Source: Podarcis pityusensis
Taxonomy: Eukaryota
Assembly: GCA_964106645.2 (NCBI GenBank)
Contig: OZ067050.1
Length of the DNA: 64,000 bases
Strand: one strand, 5' to 3'
Of the stretch, positions 1 through 57,000 are shown piece after piece. The position numbers are program-made. How positions within the stretch are numbered: the first letter of the stretch is position 1; each line of letters starts with the position of its first letter.

Positions 1-3000
1 TTTTAATAAAGTTGCGGCCAAAATTTGCCTATTAACATTTAAACTAAATTCTGTCTCCACTGTGTCTTTATTTCCATGGGGGAATGGGTTTGGGGGCTCG
101 AAGCACAAACAGAAAATCAGAAGTCCTTTTATTTTAAATCTTTTTTCCTATTTCTTCATCTTCTTCTATCCTTTTTATTTTTTGCTTTTCCTTCGGTGTG
201 TTCTCTCTGTTATTGTTTTGATTTAGATTAGTTTGTCCCATCTTATTACTGGGATCCTGTTACCGAATCAGAATGTTTACAGCTAATTAAAACACTCAAG
301 AATGGCAAAGCTCCCGGTGAGGATATGATTCCTCCTGAGGTGTTTAAACTAAATGCCCAGTGGTGGGCTGCTATTTTGGCCCAACTTTTTACGGTAATAA
401 ATGATATATGCAAAATCCCAGAAAACTGGAAACTGAGCCTGGTAGCCCCCATCTATAAGAAGGGAGACCCCCAAGACCCCTCAAACTATCGCCCCATAAG
501 TCTCCTGGACATTGTGTATAAACTTTATACTCGCTACCTGCTAAATAAACTGATTGACTGGGCTGACCACTCTAACCTGCTTAATCCGGAACAGGCAGGG
601 TTTAGAAAGGGCCATAGTACAACAGGCCATTGTTTGGTACTACAGACAATGATAGATAAGTATACAAAGGTACATAAGAGCAAACTTTTTGTGGCTTTTG
701 TAGATCTCACATCCGCTTTTGATTCAATCTGTAGGGATAAATTATGGCAAAAACTATATGAAACAGATATTGATAGACGACTTCTCAAAATACTTAGAGA
801 GTTACATTCAGACACCACAGTTAAAATCAGAACTGGGATGTCAGGCAACTATACTGACCCACTGCCACTGGGGAAAGGGGTTAAACAGGGCTGTTTGTTA
901 GCACCGTTCCTCTTTAATTTCTATATAAATGACATTGTTCAACATATGGCAAAGTATAAGTCATCAGCTCCTGCCCTGGAAGGCAAACACCTGAATATAT
1001 TACTATATGCTGATGACATGGCTGTCATGGCACTTACTCGAAGGGGCCTACATAGCATGCTGGAGGGGCTCGCAGCTTATTGTTCCCAAAACTCTCTAAA
1101 GATAAATTATGACAAAACAAAAATTGTGGTATTTACTAGAGCTCGCCACACATTTAGATGGTCTTTAGATGAACACAAAATTGAACAGTGTCTTTTTTTT
1201 AAATATCTTGGTATCACTTTCCAAGCTACATCTAGCTGGCTTGCCCACTTCAAGACTGTAGCCCTTCTAACACGTAGGACAATCGGTGCTCTGCTCAGCT
1301 TTTTTTATTCGAGGGGAGGGCAACTGGTGATCCCGGCACTAAAAGCTTTTGTTGGAAAAGTGATTCCCCAGATGCTATATGGAGTAGAACTCTGGGGATG
1401 GAATCAGAAGCTGTTAGAATGGCTTGAAATCTTCCAAAATTTTTACCTCAGAAGAATTCTAGGCCTCCCTCAGAGTACTCCGGCAGCTCTCCTAAGAGTG
1501 GAAGTAGGATTACCTTCTGTGTCTGCCAGGGCCCACTTAAGATTCCTGCGTTTTTTCACCAACCTCACAGATGCCCCGAACACCTTATTGGCTAAACAAG
1601 CCTTTGTATCATTACAAAATAATACTACTTGGCATAAAAACCTACTAGATATCCTATCCAGATACAATCTACCTGAGTTTAATACCCTCAAATTGTGGAG
1701 CCCTGATAAAGTTCGGGAATGGATCTTTGAAAAAGACGCCTTTTTGGACTCCACAAAGATAAAAAACTCTGGGTTTTCCTACTGGTTTCCCCGAGTAAAA
1801 GCAGTCAAAATCTGTGCCAACTACTTGGTGGAGATCACTGATCCCACCCTTCGGAGAGCTTTTACTATGGCACGGTTTCAAACACTGCCAACTGCATATC
1901 TGACCGGTAGATTCACAAAAACCCCAGTAGAACATCGTTTATGCCCTTGCCTTATGAAAATTAAAGAGGATCTTACACATTACCTCCTCTATTGCCCCAT
2001 CTACTCGGGCTTTAGAGACGCATTGCTGCAAATTATACCCAACTCTATAACCAATCCTGAAGATAGAGTAAAATTTTTGTTAGTCGATGCAAACCCACGT
2101 ATTACCCATGTGGTAGCGGTTTTTGTGATGAAGGCCATGAAAGCCAGGGAAAGATTTATGGATGACAATGTAAAGACCCATTCATCGTCTGTTTAACTCG
2201 TTGCTTGTTTTCCCTCTCTTTCTATTTTGTGGGATGAAGGTTTTGTTGGCGTAGTATGTAATGAATTTTAATATTTTTTAACTATTGTTGTGTTGATGTT
2301 TGTGTACAGGCATGGTCCTCACAATAAACGGATTTGATTGATTATTTAAAAAACTTTAATAGAATCATATTAAAGACAAAAAGGGAGGAAAGACAGTAGA
2401 TGGTAGATTTCATATGAATTCAGTTAAAAAAATCAAATGTACAAAAGAAAATGTTAATAATAATAATAATAATAATAATAAATTATTTATATCCCACGCA
2501 CTCTGGGTGGTTTCCAACAAAATATTAAAATTGCAATAAAACATCAGGCATTAAAAACTTCCCTTAACAGGGCTGCCTTCAGAAATCTTTTAAAGTCAGT
2601 TGTTTATTTGCTTGACATCTGATGGGAGGGCTTTCCACAGAAGTATAACTTTTGCAAGAAAATTGTGATGAAATCTTTTTTTATTACCTGCCAAGGCTGT
2701 AGATCTCGAAGTTTTAATCTTTCAATGCTCCTCATTACTCTCTGCTTGGATCCAGACAAGTAAATGGCATGCAAAGCATGAGCCACCACATAAACAGCAT
2801 TGTAGATACTGTAACTATGGCCAGATAGCTCCATTTCAAACAGAGACCTTGGAAGACTGTCCAGGCTCTCCTCTCCAGTACACACATCATTGGTGTTCAT
2901 TGGTGCATCAGGATTTGGAAGTATACAGTCAAATGCTTGCTCCCAGAAGACTTTGAAGAATCCTTCTGCCTGTGTCCAAGACGGGTTTATTCTCTGAAGA

Positions 3001-54000: not shown

Positions 54001-57000
54001 ATTCCTAGATTTCAAACCTGGTTAAAACCTTTGTTCCATATAATCAGGTCCTCATGAATGATGAATTCTTTTCTATTGGGAGCATAGGGATCCACCCATC
54101 CAACCTTCACTCGAAGGAAGGACTTGTTTGGGAAGGTGAGCATGTTTGTGATGTCAAATCCACTTCCCATTTCTCTTCTATTAGTAAAGAACACTGTTTC
54201 TCCAGCTGAGTTGTTAAATGAAATGTCAGGAAGAAAATGGTGCAGCTAATTGAAAAGAAAAATGAAGGGGAGAGAACATAATGTAGGTATTGAGCAAAAT
54301 GCCATGATTTACAAAGACCTTTCTTTATGAGCATTAATTATGGAGCTTCACTTTACATAGACCAAGTATAAAAAAATCACCTGTTTTGACACAGCAGATG
54401 GGGACTTCTGGGGAAGGAAGATGGCAGACTGAATGTCTCCTTATATACCTATATATGTTATCTTAAATACTTTTCTACTTATAGACTTATATATGTGTGT
54501 TACCTTATACACTTAACTATTATTTTCATTTTCACCATTCTCCTCTGCAATATCTGTACTGCAGAGGATTGTAAATTTAGTTTGTGTGTAGAAAACAAAA
54601 AATATGAAGTAAAAAAATATGAAACAAAAAGGAAATGTGATACAGAGGAATGTTAAGGGCATGAAAGATTCTTACTATGGAACCTCGAACAGGATTTGTG
54701 CTGGTGTTCCTTGAAGAAAACTTTGTAGAAAACGTAATAAATATGAGTAACACTGCCACCGATGATGAGGTCACGTGGCTGGTACCACTCATGTGGAACA
54801 GGAACAGGATCATTCACACGGCACGTCATAGTAGTAGAGGTTTCTTTGTCAGCCAGTGATAATTTCCAAAAGATGTGTAAACTACTTTCTAGCTTTAAGA
54901 AGTAAATTAATCTAAGACATTTGTGTTAGGAGATTGGGAAAATATTGGCTAACATAAAGTAGATCAGGTGGATGTCATCCTTGGGTGAATATTTTGAATA
55001 ATTTCTATTATGTAAGAGACAGAAAATCTTTTATTATTTTGTTCTATTTTTAGTGTTCCTTTGGTGTTTTGTTTTCTTCTCTCTCTCAAAATTAGCTTAT
55101 TTCATCCTATTTTATTATTAAAAAACTTTAACAAAACCGTATCAAAGATAAAACAAAAATATTAAAGATGAAATAAAATCTTGTTAAAAAATGACCAATA
55201 CTGCTGTAGCATGACTTCTGCATTTGAACTGTTATGAAATGTTAAGTTATACCTATAGTTTCAATGAAATAATCATATTTTTCTTGGTCTTCGTTTCTAG
55301 AATATTACCTGCCAAGGCTGCAGATTTTGAAGTTTTAATTTTCCATGGCTTCCCTTTGTTCTCTGCTTTGATGTAGACAAATGAATGGCATGCAAAGTGT
55401 GAGCCACAATATAAACAGCATTGTAGATACTGTAACTATGGCCAGATATTTCCATTGCAAACAGAGACCTTGGAAGACTGTCCAAGCTCTCCTCCCCAGT
55501 ACACACTTCATTGGTGTTCATTGGCGCATCAAGATTTGGAAATATACAGTCAAATGCTTGCTCCCAGAAGACTTTGAAGAAACCTCTCTGGGTCCAGGAA
55601 GGGTTTACGCTTTGAAGAAATTCCTTGAATACTAGAAGATTTTGTGAATGAATTGTTAAGGATATGGCACCTTGGAAGAGCTGAAAATCCAGAAACCTAC
55701 AGATTCCTGCTAATATGAAATCAGTCTGGGCTGTCAAGATCCACACCTTTTTGAATCCTGTGTTTTCCTTATTGGTTGGGTCTCGCAAAAATATAATAAG
55801 TCTCAGGGCTAAAATTGTCAGGGATTCTCCATAGACAATATATGTAGTAACTTTATTATCTGTGAATGGCATATATATATTAACGGCTACATCATCCATC
55901 TCATCCAGGTTATCAAGATGAGCTTTATTTAGGATTCTTTGTGTAAAGGCTGAACAAATTCCATTTTGAGAGAGCAATGGTTGGAATTTATTGATGAAAT
56001 ATTCTCCACTGTTATCATTAGGAACAAAGAGCCCAACCCATGTCCAACCAAAATGCTTAAGCAAACTGATAATCCCTGTGTACTGGTGGGCTTCATTGGG
56101 CACCATGCGATAAAAGGATGGGAATTGAGTCTCCTCTGGAGGAAAGGAACCATATGCCAGCTAAAAGAAATTGTAAAGATGTTATGCAGTAATGTTGAAA
56201 TAGTTATCTAACCTTCACTTAAAATAGCATTCTGATTTGCATTTTGACTAGATCGGTCTCACATGCCTAGGTAGCGATAAAGGGACACCTGACTGTTAAG
56301 TCTTGTCACGGACGACTCTTGGGTTGCAGCACTCATCTTGCTTTACTGGCCGAGGGAGCTGGCGTACAGCTTTCGGGTCATGTGGACAGCATCAGTAAAC
56401 CGCTTCTGGCAAACCAGAGCAGCGCACGGAAACGTTGTTTACCTTCCCGCCGGAGCGGTTCCTATTTATCTACTTGCAGTTTGATGTGCTTTCGAACTGC
56501 TAGGTTGGCAGGAGCAGGGACCAATCAATGGGAGCTTACCCCATCACAGAAATTTGAACCGCCAACCTTCTGATTGGCAAGCCCTAGGCTCTGTGGTTTA
56601 GACCACAGGGCCACACGCGTCCCAGAAGGGGGACGCACATGCCTAGGAAATAACAAAGAAAAGGGGAAGGTGGAATAAAGATTTAGTGTTGGATCAAACT
56701 AAAACTTATTCAGTGAAGACCCATTGAAATAGATCATTAATATTAATAGGTCTGCTTTGAGTAAAATTGCAGAGTAAATATTACCTGATGGATCTACTCT
56801 GAGTAGAACAAGCCTTGGATACAACCTATAGAGGATGGAAGAATAAAAAACCCCATCAACCCTACACATAGCTTACTTGTGGAATCTTGTAGAGATCTAA
56901 TATGTCTACCATATGGAAGGAAGTATCAGAGCCAAGTCCCCCAATGATGGATATGGGGGTTTTCTGTGTGTCACATTTGTAATTGGGAATGAATCTCCCC

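What the first reader, a model, noticed from the sequence alone, without database searches (positions are those of the whole stretch)
2688..56160. Patchwork (four-gamete) recombination inside the ligand-binding exon 3 of V2R paralogs A, C, E, F
Seen: adjacent blocks of exon 3 group the paralogs incompatibly. The N-terminal block (EAHQYxGIISLLKHFGWTW..KFQPLL) groups A,C,F against E. The middle block groups A,C (MYDVxLxMNAxF..ALRGLVFLQD..ETI) against E,F (MDDVAVNIYMPF..ALRLIIFLRD..ENTG). The next block groups A,E (WTQ-A/T-EGFF, NTNDVC) against C,F, which share a one-codon deletion (WTQ-S/R-GFF) and NTNEVC. No single duplication tree explains this. Inference: repeated gene conversion or unequal crossover is shuffling segments of the Venus-flytrap domain and could generate new ligand specificities combinatorially.
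[Added by the scan's program, not by the reader: the finding's places include an assembly gap (unread letters, written N; its length is only estimated) at 8455 to 8594. Whether the letters on both sides are continuous or in frame is not known: test that first.]
Basis: partly seen in the sequence, partly recalled or inferred. Interest (0 to 1): 0.65.

Follow-up and report, generated by a model that had tools for sequence, protein, structure and literature searches.

The report
Mosaic lizard vomeronasal receptor genes
Neighbouring copies of a lizard pheromone-receptor gene have exchanged short stretches of their ligand-binding exon, which is a real but ordinary way for tandem gene families to evolve.

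Summary
The window is a head-to-tail cluster of V2R (class C GPCR) genes from a lacertid lizard, all on the minus strand. The mosaic is far beyond chance: PHI 0 of 5000 permutations; a two-breakpoint parsimony segmentation gains 25 steps against a maximum of 13 in 500 permutations; block trees carry 84-100% bootstrap. Synonymous distances switch partners with the blocks, so convergent selection is excluded. Each arrangement also occurs in an independent genome: F matches a Podarcis muralis protein, E a Lacerta agilis protein, and A/C a Zootoca vivipara protein. Assembly chimeras are therefore very unlikely, and the block 1/block 2 conflict predates those genera. Later short patches of 200-280 nt (E-F, A-E, C-F) look like interlocus gene conversion. 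The N gap lies in a retroelement remnant beside truncated copy B, outside the compared exons. The 7TM exon is mosaic too, so the process is cluster-wide. Positions aligned with CaSR ligand contacts are identical in A, C, E and F, so the idea of new ligand specificities is untested. Verdict: observation confirmed; a new example of a known process; modest interest.

The parts
2688..3551 (-). Exon 3 of V2R copy A (864 nt, open, AG acceptor and GT donor)
   Evidence: tblastn of P0007.
22503..23363 (-). Exon 3 of copy C (861 nt, with a one-codon deletion)
44094..44957 (-). Exon 3 of copy E (864 nt); Pfam ANF_receptor
   Evidence: Pfam E=5.6e-21.
55309..56160 (-). Exon 3 of copy F (852 nt, with a 3-codon and a 1-codon in-frame deletion, both shared with P. 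muralis protein P0010)
30620..31483 (-). Exon 3 of copy D (21-23% from A, C, E and F); used as outgroup
8857..9710 (-). Exon 3 of copy B (about 31% divergent). Its last ~12 nt and donor site are replaced by retroelement-like sequence, and no exons 4-6 are found: a truncated pseudogene as assembled.
8455..8594 (.). Assembly gap (140 N) inside a plus-strand retroelement-like coding remnant. With the nominal length, the reading frames on the two sides differ by one base.
44502..44705 (-). E side of the E-F near-identical patch (alignment nt 253-456): 6/204 differences, against 16.0% upstream and 11.4% downstream
55714..55917 (-). F side of the E-F patch
2700..2899 (-). A side of the A-E patch (alignment nt 653-852): 7/200 differences, dS 0.05, against 14.1% elsewhere
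44106..44305 (-). E side of the A-E patch. It ends at the exon-intron junction, where E carries the 45-nt intron segment shared with F and D that A and C lack.
22656..22931 (-). C side of the C-F patch (alignment nt 433-711): 14/276 differences. It includes the shared codon deletion and a 64-nt identical run.
55462..55737 (-). F side of the C-F patch
55920..56160 (-). F block 1 (alignment nt 1-250), where F groups with A and C (7.9%) and not with E (16%). The same holds in exon 2.
51892..52791 (-). Exon 6 (7TM) of F. With the exon 6 copies of C, D, E and G it also shows a recombination signal.

Best explanation
The window holds a tandem array of V2R (class C GPCR) genes of a lacertid lizard. 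Their exon 3 is a true mosaic produced by recombination between paralogues (non-allelic homologous recombination).

Three old paralogue lineages can be told apart: A/C, E and F. An ancient exchange, older than the split of the Podarcis, Lacerta and Zootoca lineages, left the F lineage related to A/C from exon 2 to about nt 250 of exon 3. From nt 250 to about nt 490 it left the F lineage related to E.

Later, short patches of about 200-280 nt were copied between neighbours:
- E and F, nt 253-456.
- A/C and E, in the 3' third of the exon.
- C and F, around the codon deletion.

Each patch is flanked on both sides by 11-18% divergence. That is the footprint of short-tract interlocus gene conversion rather than of single unequal crossovers.

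What is shown: the incongruence, its significance, its presence at synonymous sites, and its presence in other genomes. What is inferred: the mechanism (conversion versus crossover), the direction of transfer and the order of events.
For: - PHI: 0 of 5000 permutations.
- Segmentation: 25-step gain against a maximum of 13 in 500 permutations, with breakpoints at 247/255 and 491/509.
- ML block trees, 200 bootstraps: (A,C,F) 84% in nt 1-250; (A,C) 100% and (E,F) 99% in 251-500; (A,C,E) 99% and (A,E) 97% in 501-864.
- AU tests: each block rejects the other blocks' topologies, p 0.045 to 0.005. The blocks were chosen from the data, so these p values are optimistic.
- Sawyer-type run test on 378 polymorphic sites, 15 pairs, 2000 permutations: E-F 253-491 p=0.0005; A-E 653-852 and C-E 469-800 p=0.001; C-F 433-711 p=0.0015. 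All are below 0.03 after multiplying by 15.
- Synonymous distances follow the mosaic in blocks 1, 2 and 3+4: E-F dS 0.49, 0.14, 0.17; A-F 0.15, 0.36, 0.245; A-E 0.37, 0.39, 0.08.
- Independent genomes: F matches P0010 (P. muralis) at 99/93/96/98% in the four blocks and shares both deletions. E matches P0012 (L. agilis) in 59/62 residues of block 1. A matches P0121 (Z. vivipara) at 86% over exon-3 residues 1-157.
- Cross-species trees: block 1 clade A,C,F,P0010,P0121 has UFBoot 97; block 2 clades are A,C,P0121 (97) and E,F,P0012,P0010,P0007 (88).
- Younger events: E-F 68/69 residues in block 2 against 62-63/69 to their orthologues. A, C and E are set apart from all other lacertid proteins in blocks 3-4, UFBoot 98.
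Against: - No reads were available, so the phasing of each copy is not directly confirmed.
- Without mismatches allowed, the run test gives only one marginal fragment (C-F 624-687, p=0.0035, 0.05 after correction). No tract is very recent.
- The (E,F) grouping against their orthologues in block 2 has only 41-46% UFBoot. It rests on distances and very few informative residues.
- Other species are compared at protein level only, with predicted gene models, two of which are incomplete (P0012 starts at exon-3 residue 22; P0121 stops at residue 157).
- A and F share more similar exons 1 and 2 and an upstream segment. An old unequal crossover could therefore account for the longest segment.
- PHI found no signal within exons 1, 2 or 4, which have only 7-30 informative sites.
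Confidence: 0.85

Rival explanations
1. Assembly artefact: the mosaics are consensus chimeras of collapsed or mis-threaded paralogues in a repetitive cluster.
For: The scaffold carries an N gap. The cluster is repetitive, with paralogues 5-16% apart. No reads could be examined.
Against: - F's full arrangement, including both in-frame deletions, recurs in P. muralis protein P0010.
- E's block 1 and its block 2 and block 4 types recur in L. agilis P0012.
- The A/C block 1 plus block 2 arrangement recurs in Z. vivipara P0121.
- A and C agree with each other at 92.5% over 1.7 kb including introns, at two places 20 kb apart.
- The shared tracts are not identical (2.9-5.1% apart), as mis-threaded reads from a copy in the window would make them.
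- The gap is 4.9 kb or more from any of the four exons.
- All four exons are open with intact splice sites.
Confidence: 0.04
2. One duplication tree, with regional rate differences or convergent selection on the binding domain mimicking recombination.
For: Block 2 is the most variable protein stretch (dN 0.13-0.15 between AC and EF). V2R binding domains are known to evolve fast (recalled).
Against: - Regional rates scale all pairs alike. Here pairs change in opposite directions between blocks: E-F 39 then 11 differences, A-F 19 then 40, Fisher p=2.6e-6.
- Synonymous distances show the same switches.
- 11 informative sites lie in codons whose amino acid is identical in all four copies, and they follow the blocks.
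- dN/dS is below 1 in nearly all pair-block cells.
Confidence: 0.03
3. The mosaic comes mainly from unequal crossovers that built chimeric genes during tandem duplication, all of them ancient, with little or no gene conversion and no continuing exchange.
For: - A and F are alike from an upstream segment (96.3% over 465 nt) through exon 1 (7.6%), exon 2 (6.6%) and block 1 (7.9%).
- C has a quite different exon 1 (27.5% from A) although it is A's sister in exons 2-3.
- Orphan exon-1 copies and a truncated copy B show that rearrangements happened.
- The block 1/2 conflict is older than three genera.
Against: - Three patches of 200-280 nt are flanked on both sides by 11-18% divergence. A single crossover cannot produce that.
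- Introns between the similar A and F exons are only about 82% identical.
- E-F in block 2 and A/C/E in blocks 3-4 are closer to each other than to their cross-species counterparts.
Confidence: 0.08

Closest known systems
Gene conversion among OlfC (fish V2R-like) subfamily 9 genes of channel catfish (PMC6588630; passages seen)
   Same: Same receptor superfamily (class C, V2R-like), tandem paralogues, and tracts detected by Sawyer-type permutation.
   Different: That work treats conversion as a nuisance that homogenises copies within a species, and it gives no block-by-block history. Here the exchanges are mapped inside one exon, dated against three other genera, and occur in a squamate.
Gene conversion and rearrangement in mouse V1R clusters (PMC2644715; passages seen)
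   Same: Vomeronasal receptor genes in tandem clusters rich in LINEs, with paralogue relationships blurred by lineage-specific conversion.
   Different: V1Rs are an unrelated, single-exon class A-like family. The evidence there is excess dS between positional orthologues, not within-exon mosaics.
Squamate V2R repertoire study (PMC3590772; passages seen)
   Same: Same gene family and clade. It describes squamate-specific V2R expansions.
   Different: It only names homogenisation by gene conversion as a possibility that 'could be investigated'. The present window supplies such a case.
Non-allelic gene conversion in tandem arrays in general (PMC10463633, passages seen; olfactory-receptor, MHC and KIR examples are recalled, not checked)
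   Same: Short tracts exchanged between neighbouring paralogues give patchwork genes.
   Different: Nothing in the mechanism differs. Only the family and the species are new.

Membership tests
V2R / class C (family 3) GPCR | Venus-flytrap ligand-binding domain (Pfam ANF_receptor) | tested here: met
   Exon 3 of E matches PF01094 at E=5.6e-21, 75 bits against a cut-off of 25.4. It aligns to CaSR residues 173-458.
V2R / class C (family 3) GPCR | 7tm_3 transmembrane domain | tested here: met
   Exon 6 of E matches PF00003 at E=1.3e-83.
V2R / class C (family 3) GPCR | Cysteine-rich linker (NCD3G) | tested here: inconclusive
   Exon 4 of E alone (77 aa) gave no Pfam hit. The full-length homologues carry PF07562 in the precomputed column.
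V2R / class C (family 3) GPCR | Six-exon gene structure and closest relatives named V2R | tested here: met
   tblastn of P0007 finds six collinear exon matches for C, D, E and F. The best hits are 'vomeronasal type-2 receptor 26-like' of lacertids at up to 78% for A. These names are automatic annotations.
Interlocus (non-allelic) gene conversion | Significant change of phylogenetic partner along the sequence | tested here: met
Interlocus (non-allelic) gene conversion | Signal present at synonymous sites | tested here: met
Interlocus (non-allelic) gene conversion | Short internal tracts flanked on both sides by higher divergence | tested here: met
   E-F 16.0% / 2.9% / 11.4%. C-F 12.3% / 5.1% / 17.6%. 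A-E 14.1% / 3.5%, followed by a different intron type.
Interlocus (non-allelic) gene conversion | Paralogues closer to each other than to their orthologues within the tract | tested here: inconclusive
   E-F 68/69 residues against 62-63/69 to P0012 and P0010, but the (E,F) node has only 41-46% UFBoot. A,C,E are set apart from the rest at 98%. Protein level only.
Interlocus (non-allelic) gene conversion | Non-reciprocal transfer with identified donor and recipient | not testable with these tools
   This needs nucleotide sequences of orthologous clusters or population data.
Unequal-crossover chimeric gene | A single junction with all flanking sequence switching partner together | tested here: inconclusive
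   A and F are alike from upstream to block 1, but unevenly: 96% / 82% / 92%. The three short patches do not fit this model.

The most novel reading that the evidence does not exclude
Exon 3 of this lacertid V2R subfamily may be built from a few ancient, interchangeable cassettes. Block types would persist across genera, as the A/C, E and F types do in Zootoca, Lacerta and Podarcis. Conversion would re-assort them, and selection would keep particular combinations because they pair different lobe surfaces of the Venus-flytrap domain. That would be a combinatorial way of diversifying receptors, comparable to domain shuffling in immune receptor clusters.
Probability: 0.1. Interest if true: 0.55.

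Novelty: new member of a known kind. Interest (0 to 1): 0.3.

Why it matters
- It gives a clean, dated example of recombination between paralogues inside the ligand-binding exon of squamate V2Rs. A repertoire study of that clade left this open (PMC3590772, passages seen).
- Whole-gene or whole-exon trees of these receptors are unreliable. The full exon 3 gives only 47% support for any E/F placement.
- Tests for positive selection, orthology calls and birth-death estimates in lacertid V2Rs should therefore be done per block, or after removing the exchanged tracts.
- It is not a new mechanism.

Tried and rejected
- (segmentation with permutations in one script) brought no answer from the script machine. 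The work was split into.
- The run test without mismatches gave only one marginal fragment.
- PHI inside exons 1, 2 and 4 was not significant: p=0.57, 0.31 and 1.0, with 30, 30 and 7 informative sites.
- Intron flanks add little to the E-F grouping. The 45-nt segment after the donor that E and F share is also in D, so it is ancestral and only marks a deletion shared by A and C.
- Pfam found nothing for the coding remnants around the N gap beyond sub-threshold coiled-coil hits. The label 'L1 ORF1 / start of ORF2' rests on my recall of motifs only.
- GC content does not differ between blocks or copies, so there is no sign of biased conversion.
- Literature searches for gene conversion in V2R/Vmn2r or lizard V2Rs found no study of squamate V2R conversion. 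Subscription journals are not covered.

Not attempted:
- The third homologue search, the representative-library search, the atlas and the complex predictor, because none bore on the question.
- The DNA collections on offer (bacterial/archaeal genomes, phages, plasmids, E. coli), which hold no lizard sequence.
- Metagenome contigs and viral contigs, which were closed.
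Full report
**What the window is.** The 64-kb window has 40.9% G+C and one run of 140 N at 8455-8594. It carries a head-to-tail array of V2R genes on the minus strand.

- Stop-to-stop ORFs give six exon-3-sized frames and five 7TM-sized frames.
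- Exon 3 of E matches Pfam ANF_receptor and exon 6 matches 7tm_3.
- A search with exon 3 of A against full-length proteins gave 1126 hits at E<=1e-20 among 2137 candidates. The best hits, apart from fused multi-gene models, are 'vomeronasal type-2 receptor 26-like' of lacertid lizards (Zootoca, Podarcis, Lacerta), at up to 78% identity.
- The contig is therefore from a lacertid lizard, not human.
- tblastn of one natural full-length homologue (P0007) maps six collinear exons for C, D, E and F. It maps exons 1-3 for A and B, and exons 5-6 of a further gene G.
- Stops occur only where the matches run on into introns.

I worked exon by exon throughout.

**The gap.** The N run lies 262 nt beyond the 3' end of B's exon 3, inside plus-strand coding remnants of a retroelement.

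- With the nominal 140 N, the frames on the two sides differ by one base. Because the gap length is only an estimate, nothing follows from that.
- Pfam does not recognise these remnants. Calling them L1-like is my recollection only.
- The remnants abut the truncated end of B's exon 3, which has lost its last ~12 nt and its donor site.
- No exons 4-6 of B are found, so B is a truncated pseudogene as assembled.
- None of the four exons in the finding contains or adjoins an N.

**The observation.** Exon 3 spans A 2688-3551, C 22503-23363, E 44094-44957 and F 55309-56160. All four have an AG acceptor, a GT donor and an open frame.

- The codon alignment has 40 quartet-informative sites: 32 AC|EF (29 of them in nt 255-491), 6 AE|CF and 2 AF|CE.
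- C and F share the same one-codon deletion with the same flanks, while A and E share derived bases next to it.
  - In nt 1-250, A, C and F are 5-8% apart and E is 14-16% from them.
  - In nt 251-500, E-F is 4.4% and AC versus EF is 15-17%.
  - In nt 501-864, A, C and E are 5.5-6.4% apart and F is 10-13% from them.
- 'A,C,F against E' is a trivial split in a bare quartet. It becomes a conflict only with outgroups or orthologues, and that conflict is then confirmed below.

**Is it more than chance?** All tests below are my own scripts, not the published programs.

- PHI: 0 of 5000 permutations reach the observed value with 4, 5 or 6 copies.
- Parsimony segmentation over the 15 rooted trees of A, C, E and F, with D as outgroup.
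  - It puts breakpoints at 247/255 and 491/509.
  - It saves 25 steps; 500 site permutations give a mean of 6.9 and a maximum of 13.
- ML trees with 200 bootstraps.
  - (A,C,F) gets 84% in block 1.
  - (A,C) gets 100% and (E,F) 99% in block 2.
  - (A,C,E) gets 99% and (A,E) 97% in block 3.
  - The whole exon leaves E/F unresolved at 47%.
- Splitting block 3 (100 bootstraps) gives (A,E) 100% in 501-720 and (A,C,E) 89% in 721-864.
- AU tests reject the other blocks' trees: p about 0.045 in block 1, 0.01-0.02 in block 2 and about 0.005 in block 3. These are post hoc, because the blocks came from the data.
- A Sawyer-type run test finds four fragments: E-F 253-491, A-E 653-852, C-E 469-800 and C-F 433-711 (p 0.0005-0.0015).
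- Fisher tests of pair-by-block counts give p between 1e-4 and 7e-7.

- dS for E-F is 0.49, 0.14 and 0.17 in blocks 1, 2 and 3+4.
- For A-F it is 0.15, 0.36 and 0.245.
- For A-E it is 0.37, 0.39 and 0.08.
- Convergent selection and regional rate differences therefore cannot explain the pattern.

**Beyond exon 3.** The mosaic is not confined to the binding exon.

- Exon 1 of C is 25-31% from every other copy, although C is A's sister in exons 2-3. A's exon 1 is closest to F's, at 7.6%.
- Exon 6 of C, D, E, F and G gives PHI 0 of 2000 permutations.
- Introns are about 75-82% identical where alignable, so the exchanged tracts sit in the better-conserved exons.
- The A-E tract stops at the exon-intron boundary, where the intron types differ.

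**Other genomes.** Of the 120 listed proteins, 16 had at least 58% identity and full exon-3 coverage. These were aligned by block; 104 were left out. Three partial models were then brought back. A search restricted to A's block 2 added P0121; it gave 12 hits among 34 candidates.

- F matches P. muralis P0010 at 99/93/96/98% in the four blocks and shares both deletions.
- E matches L. agilis P0012 in 59/62 residues of block 1 and has P0012's block types further on.
- A matches Z. vivipara P0121 at 86% over residues 1-157, where that model ends.
- In trees of five window copies and ten chosen proteins, block 1 unites A, C, F, P0010 and P0121 (UFBoot 97).
- In the same set, block 2 unites A, C and P0121 (97), and separately E, F, P0012, P0010 and P0007 (88).

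The switch of the F lineage between blocks 1 and 2 is thus shared by three genera. It is ancient, and it cannot be an artefact of this assembly.

Younger events are suggested in two places.

- E-F is 68/69 residues in block 2 against 62-63/69 to their orthologues, though with weak node support.
- A, C and E form a group apart from all other proteins in blocks 3-4, UFBoot 98.

**Mechanism.** Three patches of 200-280 nt are 2.9-5.1% divergent and flanked by 11-18% divergence. They fit short-tract interlocus gene conversion.

The longer A/C-F similarity, from exon 2 to nt 250, could be an old unequal crossover or an older conversion. This cannot be settled here. Direction and order of events are inferred, not shown.

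**Function.** Exon 3 aligns with CaSR residues 173-458.

- The CaSR L-Trp contacts in that range are A168, S170, Y218, E297 and A298 (PMC4977154, passages seen).
- They fall on YGSF (extrapolated without gaps from the aligned part), NDNSGEY and VWILTAQTD. These motifs are identical in A, C, E and F.
- The blocks differ elsewhere, and block dN/dS is mostly below 1.
- The idea that the exchanges create new specificities is therefore neither supported nor excluded.
- My assignment of the blocks to lobes 1 and 2 would rest on recalled mGluR1 domain limits and is not used as evidence.

**Novelty.**

- Conversion among fish V2R-like OlfC genes (PMC6588630, passages) and among mouse V1Rs (PMC2644715, passages) is in print.
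- The squamate V2R study PMC3590772 (passages) only names it as something to investigate.
- Five searches found no paper that tests it in squamates. Supplements were closed, and subscription journals are not covered.
- This is a new example of a known process.

Noticed in passing
window 6250-9710: Copy B keeps exons 1-3 only. Its exon 3 loses its last ~12 nt and donor site where plus-strand retroelement-like coding remnants (7622-8860, holding the N gap) abut it. A segment at 6254-6718 is 96.3% identical to the stretch just downstream of gene G's exon 6 (61135-61597), as if the 3' flank of a lost exon 6 of B were still there.
   Followed up: partly
window 232-2337: A 5'-truncated LINE with an open 654-aa reverse-transcriptase frame (Pfam RVT_1, E=4.7e-36) lies on the plus strand in intron 3 of copy A. 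A's intron resumes at 1-247, matching C 21824-22125. Exons 4-6 of A lie off the window.
   Followed up: partly
window 54704-54847 (-), 37912-38086 (-), 36774-36947 (+): Orphan exon-1-like pieces: one inside intron 3 of F, and two between D and E, one of which is on the opposite strand. They look like relics of earlier rearrangements.
   Followed up: no
window 16273-16344 and 15365-15439 (-): Two extra copies of the last ~25 codons of exon 6 lie downstream of C's exon 6 (84-88% to P0007 residues 850-874).
   Followed up: no
window 24331-24540 versus 4441-4653: Exon 1 of C is 25-31% divergent from exon 1 of every other copy, although C and A are sisters in exons 2-3. C's first exon has a different origin.
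   Followed up: partly
window 16819-17781, 25926-26825, 39924-40820, 51892-52791, 61660-62559: The 7TM exon 6 copies are mosaic too (PHI 0 of 2000 permutations). F-G differ by 7 per 150 nt at the 5' end but by 26-27 in the middle. D-G fall from about 21 to 6-7 per 150 nt towards the 3' end.
   Followed up: partly
window 3552-3668 and about 23364-23431 versus 44958-45381 and 56161-56867: Intron 2 is very short in A and C (about 117 nt in A) but about 420 nt in E and about 700 nt in F. Only the last ~45 nt before exon 3 align between F and A/C.
   Followed up: no
window 57492-57642 and 18681-18764: Short tandem repeats lie in introns: periods 23 and 39 in F intron 1, and period 31 in C intron 5.
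   Followed up: no
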